A DNA stretch of 64,000 bases from NCBI GenBank assembly GCA_964016885.1, contig OZ024752.1, positions 27,962,001-28,026,000 of the forward strand, read 5' to 3'. The stretch comes from Eledone cirrhosa (Eukaryota). The notes under the pieces were generated by a model, which saw only the letters and a list, made by a program, of their open reading frames with translations, searched no databases and was not told the origin of the DNA. Below are positions 1 through 60,732 of this stretch, piece by piece (positions within the stretch are counted from its first letter, which is position 1; the number at the start of each line of letters is the position of its first letter). The position numbers and the translations under genes were made by a program.

Positions 1-1320
1 TTCTTAATTCAATCTCTGCTGGAAACTACTTTTATTCCTTCGGAGTAAAAGGTAATATATACGAATTATAGACTCATGTCGTTTAAACTAACAACAGATT
101 TAATCTGCACGTTTAGAGACTTTAGAAATGTTATTAGTTTATATCAAATTCCCTTTTGGTGTTAGGAATAGAATTAATTAAATAGCATGTCCACCGTATG
201 GGGCATTTCTATCATGGTATAGAATTACTTTTGGTTCTGAATTTCAGAGCTGCAGAAAAGAAAAAGGAAAGCAAAACGAAAATATATTTCACTTAAGTCC
301 AAACAGTTATACCAAACTTCTGTGAACCCATTCTTTAATTAATGAATATTTATTTATGACAAAGTGAAAGCGATCGAGTGCGATAAATACTGTTCATTGA
401 AAACTTACATCTAACCATACAGTTGAAAGAACAATTTACTCCGTTGTGTATCTTGTTAGAGAGTGGTGTGATATAGAAGTGAATTCTTAAAAGCTTTCAA
501 TGGATGTGACTATCCATTACTATACATACACATCAATTGATGTATCAGTGGTATGCAAGTAAAATATAGATGCTCTATGATATTGTAGAATGAATTATCG
601 GTGACAAAGTTGAAATTATATTTTTTTTTTACTTTGCCTTGTCAACGTTGCTTTTATTTGATCTACATAAATATATTTCAACTATGTGTATCATTAATTG
701 ATTAATGAATGCTCACCACATTAAATACATTACAACTTGATATTTTATGAAACAAAAACTTGATATTTAATGTATACATCCTTACATTATAATAAAGAAC
801 GTGGTATTTGTATTTAAGCAATATATGTGTAGGGAATAATCTCGTATGTTAATGAATGTTGTCAGAAAACGAATGTCAATGTTGATACTAAAGCTACCGA
901 TCTCGAACAACATAAACAAAAATACAAATGAAAGGGGATATAGGGAAAAGTTAGGAAAAGAGACTCCTAAAGCTACCATACCACAATAACACAAAGAGGG
1001 AAATGATACAGGAATTAGGTGTTTATATGTATGCATATCGACAAACAAACAACAGAACACTTGCTACAGAGTGTAGAAAAGAAATACTCCAATCTTTGTA
1101 GAGCTTGTACCAGTCACATTCAAAATTAAATCAATAAATCGTTAACAGATTATCAATACATATACTGAAACATTTCTTACATAAATATTAAATTTTAGCT
1201 CAAACACTCATTAAAGTTTCTGAGTTGTCCCATACACCATTGGGATCAGTATCGAGCAATTTACAGACCCCTAGTGCAGAACAATTTGAAATAGTTTGTG
1301 TCTTCACACGCACACACACA

Positions 1321-5653: not shown

Positions 5654-15236
<9,583 letters not shown>

Positions 15237-19210: not shown

Positions 19211-20310
19211 TAAAATAAAGTTAAATAAAAGTCAAATGATTAAAATTTAGCTTCGTTTATTACTGCTATATATATTTCAGTGACAGCCATCTTTGGCTGT
19301 GACCTCTTCAGGCAGTTTGAATTAGTATGGTATAGACAAGTACATATGTTGTTTAGGTGTATGATATTGTCAATACTCTGATATGCCCAGTTCCTTGTTG
19401 GGTTGTTACTTCACTGGGGAACTGGAGTCATATGAATTCAAACAAACGAATTTTAGTGTCACAGGTCCCCTTCTCCTCTCATTGGTCAGTTATTAGTGTT
19501 GTCATTGTTGGAGTTAGCTTAAAAATTGATAAAATGGTAGAAGGGACAAGGTGTTGAAGGAACAAAATATCAAAAAATGTGTCAAACTTCCCATTGTTCA
19601 GTTCTGAGAGCATTCCTCAGTCAGAAGTCTATAGAATTCTTTCTGGGGTGAGGCTCCCTGTAGTGTTTATGCCTGCTATTGTTCAGTACATTTGACCTCC
19701 ACCATTATTTTGGTACTGTTGTTGTTGTAGTGGTCAGCTTATATCTTGCTGCTGCTAACATGTTAGCAGCAGCAAGATATAAGCTGACCACTACAACAAC
19801 AACAGTACCAAAATAATGGTGGAGGTCAAATGTACTGAACAATAGCAGGCATAAACACTACAGGGAGCCTCACCCCAGAAAGAATTCTATAGACTTCTGA
19901 CTGAGGAATGCTCTCAGAACTGAACAATGGGAAGTTTGACACATTTTTTGATATTTTGTTCCTTCAACACCTTGTCCCTTCTACCATTTTATCAATTTTT
20001 AAGCTAACTCCAACAATGACAACACTAATAACTGACCAATGAGAGGAGAAGGGGACCTGTGACACTAAAATTCGTTTGTTTGAATTCATATGACTCCAGT
20101 TCCCCAGTGAAGTAACAACCCAACAAGGAACTGGGCATATCAGAGTATTGACAATATCATACACCTAAACAACATATGTACTTGTCTATACCATACTAAT
20201 TCAAACTGCCTGAAGAGGTCACAGCCAAAGATGGCTGTCACTGAAATATATATAGCAGTAATAAACGAAGCTAAATTTTAATCATTTGACTTTTATTTAA
20301 CTTTATTTTA
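19211..20310. repeat. Spacer-less palindrome with 550-bp arms (inverted PLE-type pLTR); unpaired tail 20311-20405
   Basis: Centre GCTGCTAACA|TGTTAGCAGC at 19760/19761; identical ORFs 19357-19557(+) and 19964-20164(-); flanked by (TA)n. Confidence 0.95.
20205..20259 (+). ncRNA. Type-I minimal hammerhead ribozyme (mirror copy 19262-19316 on the minus strand)
   Basis: ACUGC-CUGAAGA-GGUCACAGCC(aaagau)GGCUGUCACU-GAAA-UAUAUA-UA-GCAGU, followed by AATAAA. Confidence 0.8.
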
Positions 20311-22394: not shown

Positions 22395-22627
22395 GTATTA
22401 GTATTATTACTAGAAAGTGGGGTTCTTTTACAAAATGAAAAAAAACGAGGTATCCTACACGAGTGAATGTATAAGGAAAACAGATGAAATCGAAAATGCA
22501 ACTGGAATCCTTTTTTTTTTATATATATATTTATTTGGTTCCTTGACCGGTTTCGCAGTTCTTGTGCTTTTCAAACGTATAATTGAGATGGAGTGTTTGT
22601 GGTTTTTCTCACATCTATATCTATCTA

Positions 22628-24351: not shown

Positions 24352-24354
<3 letters not shown>

Positions 24355-25004
24355 TGTTATATTTGGGGAGGGTCATATTTGCGTAATATTGCCAGAATTA
24401 ATAACAGAACACACTCACTGTTTGGTTGGTTTTCGCTTCTCGCTGTCTTTTATATATATATATCTGCGATCTAACTTACTCGGTCCTCAATGTTGCCATT
24501 GACTGACCGGCGGTCAAAAATAATACAGATACAATATAGACAAACACATATATATATAGTTTACATAATTTACATAAATCTTTCGTTGCACATCTGCAAC
24601 ATCGTCAGTGGTGTTATATTCATTGTTCCTCCTGTTGTGTTGTATGTCTACGCCATTTTTTTTTGTTCAGTCTGAACAAAAGAGACTGAACAAAAAAAAA
24701 TGGCGTAGACATACAACACAACAGGAGGAACAATGAATATAACACCACTGACGATGTTGCAGATGTGCAACGAAAGATTTATGTAAATTATGTAAACTAT
24801 ATATATATGTGTTTGTCTATATTGTATCTGTATTATTTTTGACCGCCGGTCAGTCAATGGCAACATTGAGGACCGAGTAAGTTAGATCGCAGATATATAT
24901 ATATAAAAGACAGCGAGAAGCGAAAACCAACCAAACAGTGAGTGTGTTCTGTTATTAATTCTGGCAATATTACGCAAATATGACCCTCCCCAAATATAAC
25001 AATA
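24352..25004. repeat. Near-perfect palindrome (arms about 322 bp, 9-nt spacer) of a Naiad-related pLTR; tail to 25060
   Basis: Centre at 24678; terminal GACCCTCCCCAAATATAACAAT and tail resemble the 57291-61118 family; hammerhead core CUGACGA..GUUGC/GCAAC-GAAA at about 24745-24784. Confidence 0.92.
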
Positions 25005-27526: not shown

Positions 27527-28297
27527 AGATTCAGGAGCCCGACGGCAGAGCTCCGGACGTTTAGACATCTAGATTCGAACGAAGCCACCAGTCTGGTGGC
27601 TTAGTTCGGATCTACCTCTCAAAATGGCCGGAACTCAGCCGTCGGGGTCCTGAATCTTTTCATATTATGCATGGTGCATTATGGTCCACCTGGTACCACA
27701 CCCTCTTTGTTATATATATATACATAATATTATATTATATTGGAAGGGCGGGGTATGGGCAGTATCGGTAGAGAGTCGGACGCCATGCTTTCCAGCATAG
27801 TTACGTCCCTTTACAGTCTGAGTTCAAATCACGCCGAGGTTTATTTTGCCTTTCATCCTTACGGGGTCGATAAAATAAAGTACCAGTAATGCACTGGGTA
27901 ATTGCTGGCCTTGTGCCTAAAGTAGAAACAATTATATTATATTCCCTACATACGCCAAATTAGTCATGGGATTCCAAGAATGACAAATTTAATTTAATTC
28001 GGAGACTCTAATATAATATAATATAATATAATATAATATACATATATATATACATATGTATATTATATTATATTATATTATATATGTGAGGAATATAATA
28101 TAATATAATTGTTTCTACTTTAGGTATAAGGTCAGTATATTACTGGTACTTTATTTTATCGACCCTGTAAGGATGAAAAGCAAAGTTAAACTCGGCGGGA
28201 TTTGAGCACAGAATGGCAAGGGCCGTAACTCTATGCGTCAAAGCATGACGTCCGCCCCTCTAACGATACTGCCAATCCACCGCCCTAATATATATAA

Positions 28298-31200
28298 TCT
28301 ATATATATAAAACAGAGGATGTGTGTTTGTCTGTGTGTGGATGCTACATTATTCGAGGTTGGCGTCTACACCGCTCGCCCGATCTCGCATACATCACTCC
28401 TCATGACCCTTTACATTGCTTAGGATACTTTGTTTTTTATAGGTTCCCCCAGGGGTCCGCAATCCACCTTTTTGTCTATTTTGGGTGAAATCGGGAGATG
28501 AGGTTGCATTTTATGCACGCGTGAAAAATTTTTCCTTTTGAGTTTTTTGACCTCGTTTTTTGCTAATATGGGTAGAAAAGAGTCTAAATTTTGTTGACGT
28601 GCTCGAATCATTTTGAAATTCGGACGAGAGTGAAGCTCGAGGTCGAATCTCCACTTCGTATATAGAGAGACAGGAATAACAGGTCTTATAGTAACATTAC
28701 CTTCCCCTTCCTCCTTCTTTAGAGAGAGAGAGGGGAAGATAGCGAGAGAAGTTTTGGGTGTCACAGAAATATTACATTCCCCTCTCCACTTTGGTCAGTG
28801 AGCGAACCACTGTTGCTATAGTAACATTACCTTCCCCTCCCCCTTCTTTATTGACCCAGGAATATAGAGAGAAACGTTGTTGGTGTTACAGTAACATTAC
28901 CTTCCCCTCTCCACTTACTTTGGTCTTTGAGACCGAGGGAACCACTGTTGCTATAGTTACAGCTTCACGTGACACAAACCAGTTCCTGCCAGTTCTGACC
29001 ACCTGGCACCAGTTGAGTCAGTTTTTGCTTTCTTTCGGTCGAGAAGTGGACAAATTTTCGCCTTGAATAAAAAAAAAAATTTCCTGGACGCTTTGCAAAG
29101 CTTTGGTTTTCAAACGCTACACTTGCTACTTGGTTAGGCGACTGTGTAGACGTGTGCGTCACTCTCACTGCATTACATTTTGTGACCTCGCTTTCGGAGT
29201 TTGCCATTCCCAGTACGTTTTTTGTTTACTTTTTTCTTGCTTAAAATTGTAACAATTTGTCACTTTTTTTTACCTTCCCCAAAATACTGCTTATCACCTT
29301 CGCTTTTTTGCCTTTGTTCTAAACCTGCTTCCCCTTTACTGTTTACTGTACTATTGCAACCATGCCACTGAAAAGAAAGAGTACCCTTAGCCGTAGGAAA
29401 ACATCGTCTGTTGTTTCAAAAAAGAGGCGATTGAATGAGCAGTCTATGGATGCCGGACTGCATTTTTGGCCACAAACCCCTGTTACTTCGCTTTCAAACT
29501 TAAGTGCCCCTAGCACAGCCCAACCCAGCGCCTCTCTATCTACGGTTACCGCTTCGAATGGTGCCATTCGTAATTGTTGGAATGCAGTTGCAACAGCCGC
29601 CTCTAGGGCAGCAGAGAGTGACAGCCAAAGAGCTCTTCGTAGGGCTAGGAATGCTGCAACTACTGCTGCTGCAAGGGCCTCCGAAACTAAACAGCAAACA
29701 GCCACCAGACGGTCAAAGAACGCTGCTTCAACCGCCGCCTCCCGTGCCGGAGAAACCGACCAGGAGACAGCCATACGAAGGTCCAAGGACTCCGCCTCCA
29801 AGGCAGCTGCCAGAGCATCCCAGACCGAGATACAGACAGCCATCCGAAGGTCCAAGGACTCCGCCTCCACCGCAGCTGCCAGAGCATCCCAGACCGAGAT
29901 ACAGACAGCCATCCGAAGGTCCCAGAACGCTGTATCCACCGCCGCCTCCCGTGCCGCAGAACATCAAACAGCCCGTCGTGCTCGGTTGGACACAAACAAC
30001 GCACGAAGAGACACCGCCAGAGGAACAACGAGTCCACGTGAGTCATTTTGGCTTATGAAGGCTTTCAACTACGATCCAACAGTAAAATACTCCGACCGTA
30101 CGGACATTCAACTAGGCAGGATGGATGTCATATGCCAATTCTGTGGTGCAGAGAAGTGGCCCGGAGAACCACCAAGCCTGTGCTGCTCTAATGGGAAGGT
30201 TTCACTTCCTCCTTTGGCGGCCCCTCCAGAACCTTTGCGAGAACTTCTTAGCGGAGAGACCTCTACGTCAACAGACTTCCTTGGCAACATAAGGAAATAC
30301 AACTGCGCCTTCCGGATGACTTCGTTCGGGGCCAAAATTGTCCGAGAAAGCGGGTGGATGCCAACCTTTAAGGTTCAGGGCCAGGTTTACCACTATGTCG
30401 GTCCTCTACAGCCTGCGCCGTCAGCGCAACCCGCCTTCCTGCAAATTTACTTCATAGCTGACTACAACAAGCAGGCTGACATGCGCTCATCTGTCATCCC
30501 AGCTGATGGCACTAGAGAGAACCTGGACAGAGACGTCCTCCTTGCGCTGCAGCAAATGCTACACTCCGAAAACAGCTACGTGCAGAGCTTTAAGTACGCC
30601 TTGGAGACTACTGACCTGCCTAACTTCAACATTGTCATCGATGCTGACAAAAGACCATCAGGAGAACACGCCCGTCGATTCAACGAGCCCGCGTGCAACG
30701 AGGTGGCACTCGTCCTTCACGGAGACCAGCACAAACCCCGGGATATCGTCATATCCAACCGTGCAACTGGCCTCCACAGAATACGCAAAACACACCGATC
30801 CGACGACAGCCTCCAATACCCTCTATTTTTCCCCCACGGCGAGGATGGCTACCACTTCAAGACTCCACACTGCCAGCCAAACCAGCCCTCCGTTGCTGCC
30901 GCCAAAATCGTGTCCTGCAAGGAATTTTACGCATAACGACTCATGCCTCGGAGAAACTGTTTCAACAGTTTTCACAGATCGCAGGACCTACTGAACCAAT
31001 TTGCGGTGGATATGGCAGCAAAGATGTAGTCAGAACGACTGGCCTTCATTCGAACCCACCAGCAGCAACTGCGTAGCGAAAGCTACATACACCTACGAGA
31101 CGGCTTGACCAACGACGGGGATCCCCGAAACATTGGCAAGGTCTGCATCCTGCCTTCTACCTTCACTGGAGGACCTCGGTACATGCACGAGAGGACTCAG

Positions 31201-36447: not shown

Positions 36448-36480
<33 letters not shown>

Positions 36481-36491
<11 letters not shown>

Positions 36492-37609
36492 ATGAATCAA
36501 AGAACTGTTCAAAACATTTTTGTGCTTACAACTGTTTCCTCCAAACCGAGGTTTGGATTCTTCGGAGCAATTTATTAATGAATGGACAGTTATATGACTT
36601 CCTTTTCACCCAAGAGATATGCAGATACATATGCAAATATTGTGGGTCAACATTCATTACAGCATTTAGTGTGGCAGTACACACTTAGAGATTACATTCA
36701 TATTAAAACGTACAATCAAAAATCAAAAATACAGGTTAAAATACAACATGAAAATAAGCGGTTATATAGTGCAAATGTTATATGTGTGGCAAGTACGTGC
36801 GTCTTGTTTATATAGTGTGGCAGAGAGTTACGTGTAGTAGAAGCACTCAGGTAGGTAAACAAGAGTGTTAGGTTGGTTGATCTGGTGGCAAATTCTTCCG
36901 GGTAGTATTCAATGTCGATTCTCGAAACGTAACAGCCTCCTGTATTGAACTAATGAACATCAGACTACGATTCTCTAACTGGATTGTCAAACGCTCAATA
37001 TCGAATTGTCGTGGATTATGTGAGGGGCATATAATCTGAAAAATACACTCCCCTGACTATGAAAATGTCGAAGTACATGAAGCCCATATCATCCCTTCGC
37101 TGCGCATTTCCAATACTTTTAATATCTTTAATGCTTGCACTATTTTTAATGCTTATATCATCTCTCCACACACAGACTATAACAATCATATAAAGAATTT
37201 GCCACCAGATCAACCAACCTAACACTCTTGTTTACCTACCTAAGTGCTTCTACTACACGTAACTCTCTGCCACACTATATAAACAAGACGCACGTGCTTG
37301 CCACACATATAACATTTGCACTATATAACCGCTTATTTTGATGTTGTATTTTAACCTGTATTTTTGATTTTTGATTGTACCTTTTAATATGAATGTAATC
37401 TCTAAGTGTGTACTGCCACTCTAAATGCTGTAATGACTGTTGACCCACAATATTTGCATATGTATCTGTATGTCTCTTGGGTGAAAAGGAGGTCATATAA
37501 CTGTCCATTCATTAATAAATTGCTCCGAAGAATCCAAACCTCGGTTTGGAGGAAACAGTTTTAAGCACAAAAATGTTTTGAACAGTTCTTTGATTCTTAT
37601 ATTTCATAT
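36481..37609. repeat. Inverted repeat (417-bp arms, 295-bp spacer) of a hammerhead pLTR; tail to about 37708
   Basis: Arms 36481-36897 and 37193-37609 with scattered mismatches; near-identical ORFs 36582(+) and 37275(-). Confidence 0.92.
37521..37567 (+). ncRNA. Hammerhead-like motif with CCGAAGA core variant (also 36523-36569 -, 56588-56634 -, 57042-57088 +)
   Basis: UGCU-CCGAAGA-aUCCAAACC(uc)GGUUUGGAg-GAAA-CAGUUU-UA-AGCA; the copy at 56588 has palindromic stem III ACAAUUGU. Confidence 0.65.
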
Positions 37610-37773
37610 AACTGCTCTGTAAATCATCTGATGTTTTTACATTGAGCTACTTAACTTACTTAGGAATAAGGTAGTACTATATTACTGCCTACCACTATTT
37701 AGGGTTTGTATAAAAAAATATATATAACTGCAAAAGGTTTTTGTATTTACATAACCATAAATAGTATAATTAA

Positions 37774-51668: not shown

Positions 51669-52004
51669 TATAAAGAAAAAGGGATGAAATCGAAAATGCA
51701 ACTGAAGTCTTATTTTTTTAAAAAATATATATATTTATTTGGTTCCTTTACCTGTTTCGCAGTTCTTCTGCTTTTCAAAAGGTGAGTTGAGATGGAGGGT
51801 CTGTGGTTTTTCTCACGAAAAACCACAGACACTCCATCTCAACTCACCTTTTGAAAAGCAGAAGAACTGCGAAACAGGTAAAGGAACCAAATAAATATAT
51901 ATATTTTTAAAAAAAATAAGACTTCAGTTGCATTTTCGATTTCATCCCTTTTTCTTTATACTTCCACTCGTGTAGGACACCTCGGTTATTTTTCATTTTG
52001 TAAA

Positions 52005-52005
<1 letters not shown>
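51669..52005 (+). mobile_element. Palindromic copy (51669-51960 plus tail) of a non-coding hammerhead mini-element of about 200 bp
   Basis: Arms about 144 bp with 4-nt spacer; family copies at 13926-14101, 22411-22612, 52745-52975 and 55336-55513. Confidence 0.85.
51847..51884 (+). ncRNA. Hammerhead-like motif with U3:A8 core variant (UUGAAAA)
   Basis: CCUU-UUGAAAA-GCAG(aagaa)CUGC-GAAA-CAGG-UA-AAGG; other family copies have palindromic ACCGGU in stem III. Confidence 0.65.
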
Positions 52006-52087
<82 letters not shown>

Positions 52088-52688: not shown

Positions 52689-52748
<60 letters not shown>

Positions 52749-54081
52749 AAGGAATCTAAAATGCAACTGGAGTCTTATTTTTTTTTAAATATATATATTT
52801 ATTTGGTTCCTTTACCGGTTTCGTAGTTCTTCTGCTTTTCAAAAGTAAAGTTGAGATGGAAGGTCTGTGGTTTTTCTCCAGTTGCATTTTCGATTTCATC
52901 TTTTTTCTTTATACTTTCACTCGTTTTGCACACCTCGGTTATTTTTCATTTTGTAACAAAAAAGCTCACTTTCTAATATATATATATGGCTAGAATATAT
53001 GTGGCTCCTCGATACACCTATATACTATAAAGATTCTTCCGCTAACTGGAGCAGTTGTGTCAACCAATTTTCCAATTAATAATCGATCAGCTCCGAAGCC
53101 ACTGGTGTTCATAATGCTGAGGTCATCCCATTAAACTGATGATCGGTACATGAGCTTACTATGAAACAAGCGGGATTTTTATCAAGCTTTACTCGTCTAG
53201 ATCCGACCTGCTCTGCTAACCTACCCCATAAAAGTCATATCAGAGGCACTTCGTGTAGGGCGTGGTTGTTCACAACGGAGGTCGTTCTTCGAACAGAGTG
53301 AAGCTAGGTGCTCAGCTTGAAAGAGCATTTATTGCGCGTCACCAGTTCACTATATTAAATAATTGCTGTGTAACATTGTACAAACTATATAACTAATAAC
53401 TAGTAATAATTGTTTCTACTTTAGGCGCATAGCCAGCAATTACCCAGTGCATTACTGGTACTTTATTTTATTGACCCCGTAAGGATGAAAGGCAAAGTCA
53501 ACCTCGGCGGGATTTGAACTCAGATCGTAAAGGGCCGTAACTATGCTGGAAAGCATGGCGTCCGACCCTCTACCAATACTGCCAATCCCACCACCCTAGT
53601 AATAATGGTTTCTGATTTAGCCGCAAAGCCAACAGTTTTGAGGGAGGGCAAAGTTGATTCAATCGACCCCAGTGTGTTCCTGATACTTTATTTTATCAAC
53701 CCCGTAAAGATGAAAGGCAAGAACAAACCTCGGCGGGATTTGAACTCAGAACATCAAGAGACTTAACTATAATGTCGCAAACCATGTTGTCCGACACTCT
53801 AACGATTCTGCCACACCACCGGCCTAAAGGTAACTGTAATAACGAGATATCAAGTATGACGTCACCGCCAGTTAAATGTTAACAAGCAAGAGATCATTCG
53901 GTGTACTGGGGTAAAGGAAGACAATAGAGGAACTAAACAAATTGTAACAAATAAAATCAAGAACAAAAACATCAAACTGTAATTTAAAATAACAATGGAA
54001 GTTAACAGATTAACTAGAATATTGGTATTGGTTTGTGACAGAGAGATAGACAAGTCCCTTGGTATCTACATACATCTCCAG

Positions 54082-55318: not shown

Positions 55319-55525
55319 TATATATATATATATATTAGAAAGTGTGGGCTTTTTTACAAAATGAAAAAAAACGAGTGAAAGTATAAGGGAAAAAGATGAA
55401 ATCGAAAATGCAACAGGAGACTTTTTTTAAAATATATTTATTTAGTTCCTCTACCGGTTTCGCAGTTCTTTTCAAAATTAGAATTGAGATGGAGGGTTTG
55501 TGGTTTTTCTCACATACACACACAG

Positions 55526-56542: not shown

Positions 56543-57133
56543 TATATAGAAATTACATGAATCAAAGTTCTGTTCAAACCATTTATTGGCTTACAATTGT
56601 TTCTTCCAAACCGAGGTTTGGGGTCTTCGGAGCAATTTTTCAATGATTGTTTACATACATGACCTCATTTCCAACACAAGAGACACACAGAAACACATGT
56701 ATATATCGATGCACAGTGGGTTGACATCCATTATAATATTTTAGAATGGCAATTTACATTCAACGATTAAAGTCATATTAAAAGAAAACAAATTTAAAGT
56801 TAAAATACAACATTGGCAGTTTACGAAGATAATGCAAGAGGATAGTTTGCAGTAAACTGCCAATGTTGTATTTTAACTTTAATTTTGTTTTCTTTTAATA
56901 TGACTTTAATCTTTGAATGTAAATTGCCATGCTAAAATATTATAATGGATGTCAACCCACTGTGCATCGAAATATACATGTGTTTCTGTGTGTCTCTTGT
57001 GTTGGAAATGAGGTCATGTATGTAAACAATCATTGAAAAATTGCTCCGAAGACTCCAAACCTCGGTTTGGAAGAAACAATTATAAGCTAATAAATGGTTT
57101 GAACAGAATTTTGATTCAGGTAATTTCTATATA
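56543..57133. repeat. Inverted repeat (282-bp arms, 27-bp spacer), same family as 36481-37708 in opposite orientation; tail 56448-56542
   Basis: Arms 56543-56824 and 56852-57133; the tail is the reverse complement of the 37610-37708 type. Confidence 0.9.
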
Positions 57134-57290: not shown

Positions 57291-60200
57291 TTCGTTTCTG
57301 AATTTGTTTAGCAAGATTCTTTATCTGAAAACGTGTGTTGAAACCGATATTGTTATACTTTGGGAGGGTCATGTTGCCAATAAGAAACACACGCACCAGT
57401 TGCTTTCACTTCAATTTAATTTATTATATATTTATAAATTTACAAATTTATAAATTTCTGGTTGGTTGGTTGGTTCCACAACCAGATAGTTGTTTCTATA
57501 TATATAGTCATAGTTCTTTCGTCACACACTCTGTGACCTCTTCAGTGACTGGGGATTTCTTTCTTCGTTTCTGTGCCTTTCCTTTCTTCTATCCTACGCC
57601 ATTTTGTTTGTGTGTGTGGGTTGCGTGCTCAGTTTGCGCATGCGCCACATCCGGGTGTCTGTGTGTGTTTGTGTTCATTTTTCTATTTTTCTATTTATAT
57701 TTTTCTATTTGTTTGTTTATTTATTTATTTATTGTTGGTTGGTTGTTTGTTCTATGTGTGTGTGTGTTTTCATTTTGTCTTTTGTGTGTTTTCATTTTGT
57801 GTGTGTTTTCAATTGTAAGTTGTTTGTTCTATGTGTGTGTGTGTTTTCATTTTGTCCTTAATTGTAAGTTGTGATGTTGCTGTTCCACTCATATTTTCTA
57901 TTTAATTTTGGTTTTAATTCTTTTATGCTTACTGCCTCTGTAATTTGCCTAAACATTGCGTCTTTCTTGTGTGTGGATTCTATTTTTATTTCTATGCTCT
58001 CTAATTTACCCCTGTGTTCTATCTTAGCATGTTGGTATAGCACAGATGATTCTTTATTATCTTGGAGGTCTCGCCAGTGTTCATTTATTCGTTCCCCTAT
58101 ACTACGAGCTGTCTCACCTATGTACACTATATTTTTGTTTCTACATTGTCCTTCAGTACATCTTATGCTATATACTACATTTCTAGTTTTACAGTTAATA
58201 TGGGGGCTTATTTTACAGGTTATACATTTCTTGTCTATACATGAGGGTCTTTGGAACGGGTATGTCTTGCTAATAAGTGTTTTTACGGAGGTACCATACC
58301 AGGTCTTTCTACTATCTTAATATTGAGATTATGTTTCTTTAGGGCCCTTCTAAATTTGTAGGCTAGTTCGCCTCTAGGGGTTGTATTGATGAACATTACA
58401 CTCTGGTATTTATTGCTATCATACCATGAGTTTATTCTATTGGCCTTGTTCTTAGTTCTTTCTATTCTATTCCAAAATTTGCTCCTATACAAGGGGCAGG
58501 TCCCATTTATGTCATTATTTACCATTTTTTCCCATTTGGTTCTGGCTCCTTTATACACTCTGATTCTATCTCTCTGATTGTAGCCAGAGAACTGCATACG
58601 GTGGATGAAGTGTTGTATGTGTCTCTCTAGTTCTTCGGGGTTGCACATGCGGGACACATTTCTCATCACCCGTACCAAATCCGCAATCAGTATGTTGATT
58701 TTGGTATGGTCCGAAATGGCCGAGTTTCGGTGGATCAGATGTTTGGAAGTCATGGGTTTGGCATAATGGGAATGGAGGATTTGTTTTTGGTTGTTAAAAG
58801 TATCTAACCAGAGCTCTGTGTCTAGTACAGGTAATCGATGGTTGGGGTGTCTACTTGGGTAGTCTATAGTAACTCTAATGCTCTGGTGGATGGAGTTTGC
58901 TATTTGCTGGATGCTTTCCATTGTGTTTTTCTCTAGTTCCTGACTGTTCTTTAGTGGGGGTGTCTTAACTACGATGTTTATATCATCTACGCAGCGGGAG
59001 TACATTATCAGGGTTAAGCTGTCTTCTAATTGTTCATTAAGTTTTTGTTTAAGTCTACTGTCCCACCATACCATGAATAAGTTAGCTATGTCGCCTGCAA
59101 TGCTAACACCAATGGCTGCTCCTTCCTCTTGGGCATATGTTTTACCATTAAATTTGAACATATGTTCCTTAAGGGTTAATTTTATGCTGGCCCCTACCGC
59201 ATGTGCAATCATTTTCTTCAGTTCATCGTGGTTTTCGGGTGTCCGTATGGCTCTGGTCCACCCGTTCCATCTATCTGTGTGGGTTTTCTTGGCCATTGAG
59301 GTAATGGTAGGTGGTCTGCCTCTTGCTGGTCTTGTAGGGCACAGGTTGACCTTAGCAACCTGTGCCCCGAAACTCGGCCATTTCGGACCATACCAAAATC
59401 AACATACTGATTGCGGATTTGGTACGGGTGATGAGAAATGTGTCCCGCATGTGCAACCCCGAAGAACTAGAGAGACACATACAACACTTCATCCACCGTA
59501 GTTCTCTGGCTACAATCAGAGAGATAGAATCAGAGTGTATAAAGGAGCCAGAACCAAATGGGAAAAAATGGTAAATAATGACATAAATGGGACCTGCCCC
59601 TTGTATAGGAGCAAATTTTGGAATAGAATAGAAAGAACTAAGAACAAGGCCAATAGAATAAACTCATGGTATGATAGCAATAAATACCAGAGTGTAATGT
59701 TCATCAATACAACCCCTAGAGGCGAACTAGCCTACAAATTTAGAAGGGCCCTAAAGAAACATAATCTCAATATTAAGATAGTAGAAAGACCTGGTATGGT
59801 ACCTCCGTAAAAACACTTATTAGCAAGACATACCCGTTCCAAAGACCCTCATTGTATAACCTGTAAAATAAGCCCCCATATTAACTGTAAAACTAGAAAT
59901 GTAGTATATAGCATAAGATGTACTGAAGGACAATGTAGAAACAAAAATATAGTGTACATAGGTGAGACAGCTCGTAGTATAGGGGAACGGATAAATGAAC
60001 ACTGGCGAGACCTCCAAGATAATAAAGAATCATCTGTGCTCTACCAACATGCTAAGATAGAACACAGGGGTAAATTAGAGAGCATAGAAATAAAAATAGA
60101 ATCCACACACAAGAAAGACGCAATGTTTAGGCAAATTACAGAGGCAGTAAGCATAAAAGAATTAAAACCAAAATTAAATAGAAAATATGAGTGGAACAGC

Positions 60201-60732
60201 AACATCACAACTTACAATTAAGGACAAAATGAAAACACACACACACATAGAACAAACAACTTACAATTGAAAACACACACAAAATGAAAACACACAAAAG
60301 ACAAAATGAAAACACACACACACATAGAACAAACAACCAACCAACAATAAATAAATAAATAAACAAACAAATAGAAAAATATAAATAGAAAAATAGAAAA
60401 ATGAACACAAACACACACAGACACCCGGATGTGGCGCATGCGCAAACTGAGCACGCAACCCACACACACAAACAAAATGGCGTAGGATAGAAGAAAGGAA
60501 AGGCACAGAAACGAAGAAAGAAATCCCCAGTCACTGAAGAGGTCACAGAGTGTGTGACGAAAGAACTATGACTATATATATAGAAACAACTATCTGGTTG
60601 TGGAACCAACCAACCAACCAGAAATTTATAAATTTGTAAATTTATAAATATATAATAAATTAAATTGAAGTGAAAGCAACTGGTGCGTGTGTTTCTTATT
60701 GGCAACATGACCCTCCCAAAGTATAACAATAT
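57291..60732 (-). mobile_element. Penelope-like retroelement (Naiad-like), 5'-truncated, with a 1.37-kb inverted duplicate of its 3' part
   Basis: Minus copy 57291-59366 has RT (QEEGAAIGVSIAGDIANLFM, SRCVDD), a Cys-rich linker, GIY-YIG (VVYSIRC...VYIGETARS..ERINEH...EAVSI...LNRKYEWN), pLTR and tail. Plus copy 59367-60732 is the reverse complement of 57347-58730 with 4- and 14-nt deletions. Both copies share a 5-nt frameshifting duplication after ERPG. Clade assignment is from recalled motifs. Confidence 0.9.
60529..60573 (+). ncRNA. Minimal hammerhead in the Naiad-like pLTR (mirror 57506-57550 minus; variant 60875-60919 plus)
   Basis: AGUCA-CUGAAGA-gGUCAC(agagugu)GUGAC-GAAA-GAAC-UA-UGACU; the third copy has stem I UGUCA/UGACA, a compensatory change. 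Confidence 0.78.

What the first reader, a model, noticed from the sequence alone, without database searches (positions are those of the whole stretch)
51669..52005. SINE-sized element of about 200 bp with a fixed 5' end and a U3:A8 variant hammerhead, five copies in 64 kb
Seen: copies at 13926, 22411, 51669, 52745 and 55336 all end at or within a few nt of the same 5' boundary (GTGAGAAAAACC). Their consensus reads UUGAAAA-GCAG/CUGC-GAAACCGGUA, then AATAAA and a tail; individual copies carry lesions, and no tRNA head is visible. They occur as monomer, full palindrome, short fold-back and collapsed fold-back. The C3:G8 to U3:A8 swap keeps the core tertiary pair (established hammerhead structure), which argues for selection on function. 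A shared 5' end suggests a discrete non-autonomous family rather than random truncation (inference).
Basis: partly seen in the sequence, partly recalled or inferred. Interest (0 to 1): 0.75.

Follow-up and report, generated by a model that had tools for sequence, protein, structure and literature searches.

The report
Penelope retrotransposon run-off stubs
These ~200-base repeats are the end pieces of an ordinary, very abundant Penelope-type jumping gene, not a separate element; about half stop at one spot that likely marks where its RNA begins, while gene-bearing copies never stop there, hinting at a second, possibly circular, RNA template.

Summary
The five copies, their shared 5' boundary and the U3:A8 hammerhead-like motif are real. 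The unit is not a discrete SINE. It is the last ~210 bp of the pseudo-LTR of an autonomous 4.7-kb Penelope-like element (RT, CX4CxxC linker, GIY-YIG), and it also forms that element's 5' UTR. A 20-mer of it has 17,841 exact genomic matches. In 100 arms sampled without regard to their 5' end, 50 stop within -3..+10 of the boundary, 28 run upstream and 22 stop inside. Short and long copies share subfamily variants. A TATA box lies 31-33 nt upstream, so the boundary is likely the transcription start, reached by an internally primed RT. All 22 head-to-head pairs combine the two different 3' ends. ORF-linked copies never stop at the boundary (0 of 21 that reach it), which suggests a second, circular or multimeric, template. 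U3:A8 is already published for PLEs. The core is not more conserved than flanks after base adjustment, and no peak of ends lies at the cut site. No RNA data were available. This scan noted similar stubs in other genomes before.

The parts
51669..51816 (-). Left arm of the palindrome: pLTR R-like segment +3..152, ending at the inner 3' end class
51817..52006 (+). Right arm of the palindrome: R-like segment +7..198, carrying most of the ~60-bp tail
51847..51884 (+). Minimal type I hammerhead motif, U3:A8 (U3 at 51851), 4-bp stems I and II, GUA triplet; loop-3 palindrome mutated in this copy
51745..51782 (-). Same hammerhead motif in the left arm (U3 at 51778), same loop-3 change
13925..14071 (-). 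R-like segment -2..152; A14 of the core changed
14074..14102 (+). Short inverted arm, -1..28
22412..22616 (-). Monomer -1..212 of the oldest subfamily, in a microsatellite
52740..52878 (-). Arm +5..147; stem II change
52876..52974 (+). Inverted partner arm 113..212 (tail-bearing)
55337..55515 (-). Monomer +1..212 with a 6-nt deletion in the core/stem II and a 15-nt tail deletion

Best explanation
The unit is the terminal, hammerhead-bearing ~210 bp of the pseudo-LTR of an autonomous Neptune-type Penelope-like element, and its shared 5' end is likely the point where an internally primed reverse transcriptase runs off the start of the element's RNA. Shown: the unit is both the 3' end of the 4.68-kb element and the sequence directly upstream of its ORF; copies sit in (TA)n; 3' ends fall at 152 or 212; head-to-head pairs always use one of each; about half of the arms stop at G0. 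Inferred: a Pol II promoter upstream of G0 (TATA at -31 to -33) starts the RNA there. The endonuclease nicks both strands of a TA repeat, each 3' end primes at one of two internal sites in the 5' UTR, and both cDNAs run to the RNA's 5' end. They are joined head to head or trimmed, giving palindromes, fold-backs and monomers. These stubs lack the upstream promoter-like region and are predicted to be dead ends. Inferred with less confidence (about 0.35): long and ORF-bearing copies come from a template with no end at G0, most simply a unit-length circle made after double-hammerhead cleavage.
For: Parent element and domains: (GIY-YIG 28.4 bits over cut-off 22.6; RVT_1 28.7, just under its 29.6 cut-off). 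Unit joined to the ORF start; 120 exact junction matches versus 17,841 tail matches. 5' ends in 100 tail-anchored arms: 40 at -3..+3, 10 at +4..+10, 28 upstream, 22 inside. Short-read contigs show depth rising from about 245,000 (bin ending 14 nt upstream of G0) to about 1,050,000 (first bin downstream) and loose ends at G0 and at 152. Arms primed at either 3' site stop at G0 (35 and 15), so it is not a fixed length from the primer. 22 of 22 pairs combine 152 with the longer end. TATA at -31 and -33 in two subfamilies. ORF-linked copies: 0 of 30 end at -3..+10, 21 pass upstream, 9 end inside; against 44 of 66 insertions, Fisher p=1.4e-8. In 4 ORF-linked insertions the inverted arm holds sequence upstream of the direct arm's end, which simple fold-back cannot give (L351, L358, L366, L373). 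In vitro precedent: PMC11167929 reports internal initiation at two sites matching the tail, extension of both strands, product length set by the RNA 5' end, and uncleaved RNA as main substrate. A second PLE family here shows a weaker cluster, 7 of 30 arms within -14..+4 of one motif.
Against: No RNA evidence for the start site. The extra-G (cap) test was ambiguous: 46 G, 34 T, 20 A among the 100 listed of 954, but most G cases seen also fit fold-back or slippage. The in vitro study found priming without homology to the target, whereas both 3' ends here lie in TATA stretches. D. virilis Penelope has a TATA-less internal promoter (PMC2377424), so TATA usage is not general. There is no peak of ends at the ribozyme cut site (248 versus 189 in an overlapping neighbour window), so cleavage in vivo is not shown. 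The oldest-subfamily variants occur in 7-8 of 50 short arms and 0 of 27 long arms in the tail sample, although long and ORF-linked copies with them exist. The two 100-arm samples overlap and come from the first 36 Mb of one contig; exact-match anchors favour young copies.
Confidence: 0.72

Rival explanations
1. A discrete non-autonomous SINE- or retrozyme-like family with its own master copies, mobilised by the PLE.
For: Half of the arms share both ends; short copies outnumber ORF junctions by more than 100 to 1; oldest variants are seen only in short arms in one sample; non-autonomous PLEs are known (PMC8557442 passages).
Against: Same main subfamily variants in short, long and ORF-linked copies; a continuum of 5' ends upstream; no tRNA head; no tandem ribozyme-to-ribozyme monomers among sampled loci; the TATA lies outside the unit.
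Confidence: 0.07
2. G0 is a roadblock on the template (bound protein or RNA fold), not the RNA's 5' end; one long or circular template makes all copies.
For: The stop is independent of the priming site; no RNA 5'-end data exist.
Against: ORF-linked copies never stop there (0 of 21). Their inverted arms also do not: of 15 R-bearing arms read, 14 pass G0 and 1 ends at +21. Among 12 pairs where both arms reach G0, none is mixed (7 both stop, 5 both pass), though fold-back copying could also make arms agree. A TATA sits at canonical spacing.
Confidence: 0.13
3. G0 is a 3' splice acceptor (the sequence reads AG just before +1) and the stubs are copies of a spliced or lariat-derived RNA.
For: AG at -1/0; PLEs often have an intron in the pLTR (PMC4209133, PMC8557442, PMC2377424 passages).
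Against: No common upstream exon in the junctions of short copies; no clear pyrimidine tract next to the AG; ends spread over -3..+10.
Confidence: 0.05
4. Post-insertion deletion between TA repeats or assembly artefacts produce the common boundary.
For: The genome is rich in palindromes and TA runs.
Against: The boundary is not TA-rich; short-read contigs show the same ends (possibly the same sample, so independent in method only); pair arms have 0 shared rare variants in 1,766 columns and differ at 2.7%.
Confidence: 0.03

Closest known systems
Endonuclease-bearing Penelope-like elements, Neptune/Nematis type (PMC8557442 passages; PMC3846280 passages)
   Same: RT with DKG motif, CX4CxxC linker, C-terminal GIY-YIG, pLTR partial tandem, inverted 5' arm, tail on one arm, hammerhead in the pLTR, (TA)n targets; a TATA/Inr pair in a pLTR is also described for Adineta Pen2a.
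   Different: Tail is ~60 bp rather than 30-40; it is on exactly one arm in 22 of 22 pairs; about half of the arms stop at one position; two overlapping ORFs in the -1 frame. Clade placement by tree was not done.
Poseidon of Anolis (PAc) in vitro mechanism (PMC11167929, parts 1-2 of 4 read)
   Same: Two internal RT start sites bounding the tail, both strands extended, AT-rich target, product length set by the RNA 5' end, no sign of ends at the ribozyme cut.
   Different: Different clade; start sites here lie in the 5' UTR just before the ATG and in TATA stretches; here the evidence is genomic, and one site is used per arm.
Minimal type I hammerheads of PLEs, U3-A8 variant of Schistosoma Cercyon (PMC4209133, parts 1-2 of 4 read)
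   Same: U3-A8 core, G10.1-C11.1 pair, short palindromic stem III, mostly single dispersed motifs, dual motifs on opposite strands 100-700 bp apart.
   Different: Stem II is 4 bp with no extra base after A9; activity untested here.
Non-LTR retrozymes and Sm-alpha-type hammerhead SINEs (bioRxiv 10.64898/2026.07.22.740005 parts 1-2 of 5 read; PMC6765202 passages)
   Same: Short, high-copy, non-coding, type I hammerhead, PLE-related.
   Different: No tandem monomers, no boundary at the cut site, no own promoter or tRNA head; each copy appears to be made from the autonomous element's RNA.

Membership tests
EN+ Penelope-like element (Neptune/Nematis type) | PLE-type RT with DKG motif | tested here: met
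   P0001, (RVT_1 E=1.3e-6, just under cut-off); 757 relatives at E<=1e-30
EN+ Penelope-like element (Neptune/Nematis type) | C-terminal GIY-YIG endonuclease | tested here: met
   PF01541 at residues 682-772, above cut-off
EN+ Penelope-like element (Neptune/Nematis type) | CX2-5CxxC linker before the endonuclease | tested here: met
   CX4CxxC in P0001; definition in PMC8557442
EN+ Penelope-like element (Neptune/Nematis type) | pLTR partial tandem, inverted 5' arm, tail, hammerhead in pLTR | tested here: met
EN+ Penelope-like element (Neptune/Nematis type) | Phylogenetic placement in Neptune rather than Nematis | not tested
   No named reference set was fetched; 'Neptune-type' rests on domain order and linker
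SINE (discrete non-autonomous family) | tRNA, 5S or 7SL-derived head | tested here: not met
   ARAGORN 0 genes; none among 150 of 155 Rfam matches shown
SINE (discrete non-autonomous family) | Own diagnostic variants separate from the autonomous partner | tested here: not met
   (20:28 versus 13:13); same variants in ORF-linked copies; no tree was built
SINE (discrete non-autonomous family) | Internal promoter retained in the copy | tested here: inconclusive
   TATA and upstream modules lie outside the unit; internal promoter activity cannot be excluded by sequence
Non-LTR retrozyme | Tandem monomers, each with a hammerhead | tested here: not met
   Sampled copies are single or head-to-head
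Non-LTR retrozyme | Ends at the cleavage site | tested here: not met
   248 versus 189 control; main ends 70 nt upstream of the cut
Minimal type I hammerhead ribozyme | Core with paired 3:8, G10.1-C11.1, stems I and II, palindromic stem III able to dimerise | tested here: met
   cofold of two copies gives a double-hammerhead-like fold at -22.5 kcal/mol; monomer folds are no better than shuffles
Minimal type I hammerhead ribozyme | Covariation or conservation of the core | tested here: inconclusive
   Core 11/1034 versus flank 87/4581 mismatches, p=0.066, not significant by base class; no C3:G8 form in this family, 0 of 66
Minimal type I hammerhead ribozyme | Self-cleavage | not testable with these tools
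   needs a bench assay

The most novel reading that the evidence does not exclude
The copies record two RNA template pools of one PLE. Linear capped RNA, primed twice in its 5' UTR, gives the run-off stubs. A ribozyme-made unit-length circle gives all long copies and regenerates the promoter-bearing pseudo-LTR, which would explain how PLEs rebuild their pLTR and what the hammerhead is for.
Probability: 0.35. Interest if true: 0.72.

Novelty: new member of a known kind. Interest (0 to 1): 0.42.

Why it matters
As a claimed new SINE or new ribozyme variant it matters little. As a data set it bears on two open questions in PLE biology: how the pseudo-LTR is regenerated (PMC2377424 says there is no obvious mechanism) and whether the hammerhead makes a circular template (proposed in PMC4209133). 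The contrast between stubs that stop at G0 and ORF-linked copies that never do, and the 22-of-22 pairing of the two 3' ends, give sharp predictions for CAGE, RNase R sequencing and an in vitro priming assay. It also warns that repeat annotators may file such stubs as SINEs.

Tried and rejected
RNA: no RNA holder listed; only contigs of runs of unrecorded kind were laid. Rfam does not detect the hammerhead. First tail-anchored mapping failed because the reference arm lacked the anchor and was redone. In one search the pile at -454, and at -382/-396, are alignment limits (variable subrepeats or end of reference), not real ends; those arms were counted only as 'upstream'. An early notebook estimate (about 60 short, 35 long) was replaced by the count (49 at -3..+10, 44 upstream, 7 inside). 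Cut-site ends: two arms ended exactly at +71, but the genome-wide test gave no clear peak. Cap-G signature: ambiguous. C3:G8 sister form of this family: none. Covariation in a second family: U3 with G8 in about 80 and with A8 in about 20 of the 100 listed of 861 (hand count), no C3:A8 control, inconclusive. Shared private mutation in both 51669 arms suggested fold-back or conversion, but 0 shared rare variants were found in 22 pairs. Lunse et al. 2017 was not held; nothing is taken from it. Literature searches returned no paper describing a start-site hot spot of PLE stubs, but the library lacks most subscription papers and Repbase, and no supplements were read.

Full report
1. Observation. 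The five copies are present, each with an arm starting within -2..+7 of a common point, here G0. Read from G0, the strand carries a minimal type I hammerhead: U3 at +41, a 4-bp stem II, GAAA, a 6-nt palindrome as stem III, a GUA triplet ending at +70, and a 3-4-bp stem I. Each window copy has a lesion, and only the 51669 arms pass my descriptor. There is no tRNA. The window is C12:27962001-28026000 of a 3.0-Gb assembly; the host was not identified.

2. It is part of a longer element. Of the 30 best genomic matches, 11 continue upstream of G0 with shared sequence of variable length. Walking upstream led to a 3' UTR, then a GIY-YIG endonuclease, a CX4CxxC linker and an RT. Walking to the 5' end showed the same ~210-bp unit joined to the ORF start about 30 nt later. 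L290 holds both repeats, 4,682 bp apart. Five of 11 long loci show a second long frame beginning at the same place, overlapping ORF1 in the -1 frame; in L291 both are intact, 409 and 775 codons stop to stop. ORF2 matches GIY-YIG above cut-off and RVT_1 just below. By domain order and linker this is a Neptune/Nematis-type PLE (PMC8557442, passages); no tree was made.

3. Ends. Exact-pattern counts: 11,046 for a core 33-mer, 17,841 for a tail 20-mer, 120 for the unit-ORF junction, controls 0. I mapped the first 100 listed hits of the first two patterns, all on C1 and partly the same insertions. Core-anchored: 37 at -3..+3, 12 at +4..+10, 7 inside, 44 upstream. Tail-anchored: 40, 10, 22 inside, 28 upstream. 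So the 5' end is a strong hot spot on a background of random truncation. 3' ends fall in two classes, about 152 (39 arms) and up to 212 (61 arms, 52 at 212), both running into (TA)n. All 22 head-to-head pairs combine one of each. Contigs from short reads show the same ends and an about fourfold depth rise across G0; they may come from the assembled sample.

4. Not a separate family. The main subfamily marker splits 20:28 in short arms and 13:13 in long arms. The variants of the 51669 copy occur in ORF-joined copies L174 and L175. Against this, the oldest variants were seen in 7-8 of 50 short and 0 of 27 long arms of that sample, although long and ORF-linked copies carrying them exist.

5. What G0 is. 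A TATA box lies at -31 (young copy) and -33 (older copy), and upstream subrepeats carry E2F-like, E-box and CCAAT motifs (motif names recalled). Arms from either 3' site stop at G0, so the stop is not a set distance from the primer. PMC11167929 (parts 1-2 read) shows for another PLE that RT starts internally at two sites that bound the tail, extends both strands, makes products whose length follows the RNA 5' end, and prefers uncleaved RNA. Priming in the 5'-UTR copy of the unit and running to the cap would give exactly these stubs. This is inference: no RNA run was listed and the cap-G test was ambiguous. A second PLE family in the window has 7 of 30 arms ending within -14..+4 of a YY1-like motif (motif name recalled).

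6. Two templates. Among the first 30 of 120 junction matches, none ends at -3..+10; 21 pass upstream and 9 end inside. An earlier set of 28 mappable ORF-linked copies, partly the same loci, also had none. For tail-anchored insertions 44 of 66 that reach G0 stop there (p=1.4e-8). A linear RNA starting at G0 should leave ORF-linked copies that stop at G0. Inverted arms of ORF-linked insertions also pass G0 (14 of 15, read by hand), and in four cases hold sequence beyond the direct arm's end, which points to independent priming. A unit-length circle, as proposed in PMC4209133, explains this. Long linear multimers, upstream starts or template switching at G0 are not excluded.

7. The ribozyme. U3-A8 in PLE hammerheads is published, about 1,300 hits in Schistosoma (PMC4209133). 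Here it is fixed: 0 of 66 C3 matches have G8. Core mismatches are 1.06% against 1.9% in flanks (p=0.066) and not significant by base class, as expected for neutrally decaying copies. Indirect support for function: among 30 other descriptor hits in 1.25 Mb of fetched loci, 24 are C3:G8, 4 U3:A8 and 2 U3:G8 (hits with this family's own core were filtered out), and two copies cofold into a double hammerhead. There is no clear excess of ends at the cut site.

8. Prior art and verdict. Inverted pLTRs, a tail on one arm and palindromic junctions are described (PMC3846280 and PMC8557442, passages). My searches found no paper on a start-site hot spot, within a limited library and without supplements. 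Earlier unchecked notes of this scan report similar stubs in other genomes (consulted after my reading was formed); they are not independent evidence. Verdict: a real feature and an ordinary member of a known class, with a useful mechanistic signature. Interest 0.42.

Noticed in passing
L291:1309-4775 (also L290, L292, L297, L299): Two overlapping ORFs in the -1 frame with a U-UUU-UUA-type slippery heptamer at L291:2469 followed by a weak hairpin; predicted programmed frameshift. PMC8557442 Fig. 1 legend mentions such frameshifts in PLEs. ORF1 has no Pfam match.
   Followed up: partly
window 57347-60732: Large inverted insertion of a second PLE family with GIY-YIG, CxxC linker and a canonical C3:G8 hammerhead at 60534(+) and 57545(-); 14,512 exact 34-mer matches genome-wide.
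   Followed up: partly
L381-L410: That second family has ETS-, NRF1- and YY1-like motifs (names recalled) upstream of its hammerhead, and 7 of 30 arms end at the YY1-like motif.
   Followed up: partly
L331-L350: The second family has frequent U3.G8 and some U3:A8 versions, a possible stepwise path from C3:G8.
   Followed up: partly
window 1-64000: Six exact tail 20-mers against 0.38 expected from the genome average: the window is about 16-fold enriched for this family.
   Followed up: no
window 19211-20310, 24352-25004, 36480-37610, 56543-57133, 10728-10996, 27729-28298: Several further near-perfect palindromes, possibly insertions of other PLE families.
   Followed up: no
window 4526, 12957, 21702, 28133, 53445: A dispersed ~100-200-bp SINE-like repeat family (D20) unrelated to the finding.
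   Followed up: no
L002, L026, L049, L098, L101, L150, L165, L206, L273, L296: At least eight other minimal hammerhead families in the fetched loci, nearly all C3:G8, one further U3:A8 type in L296.
   Followed up: no
L085, L111, L113, L118, L198, L200: Short direct re-copies of the first ~10-20 nt after G0 at the junction, as if RT re-engaged the template end.
   Followed up: partly
G000:C1:348863669-348949710: Seven or eight C3:A8 single-variant copies, six spaced about 9.6 kb apart, likely a segmental tandem array.
   Followed up: no
Some close relatives of ORF2 are labelled as proteins of bacterial symbionts of bivalves on 3-5-kb contigs, probably host contamination.
   Followed up: no
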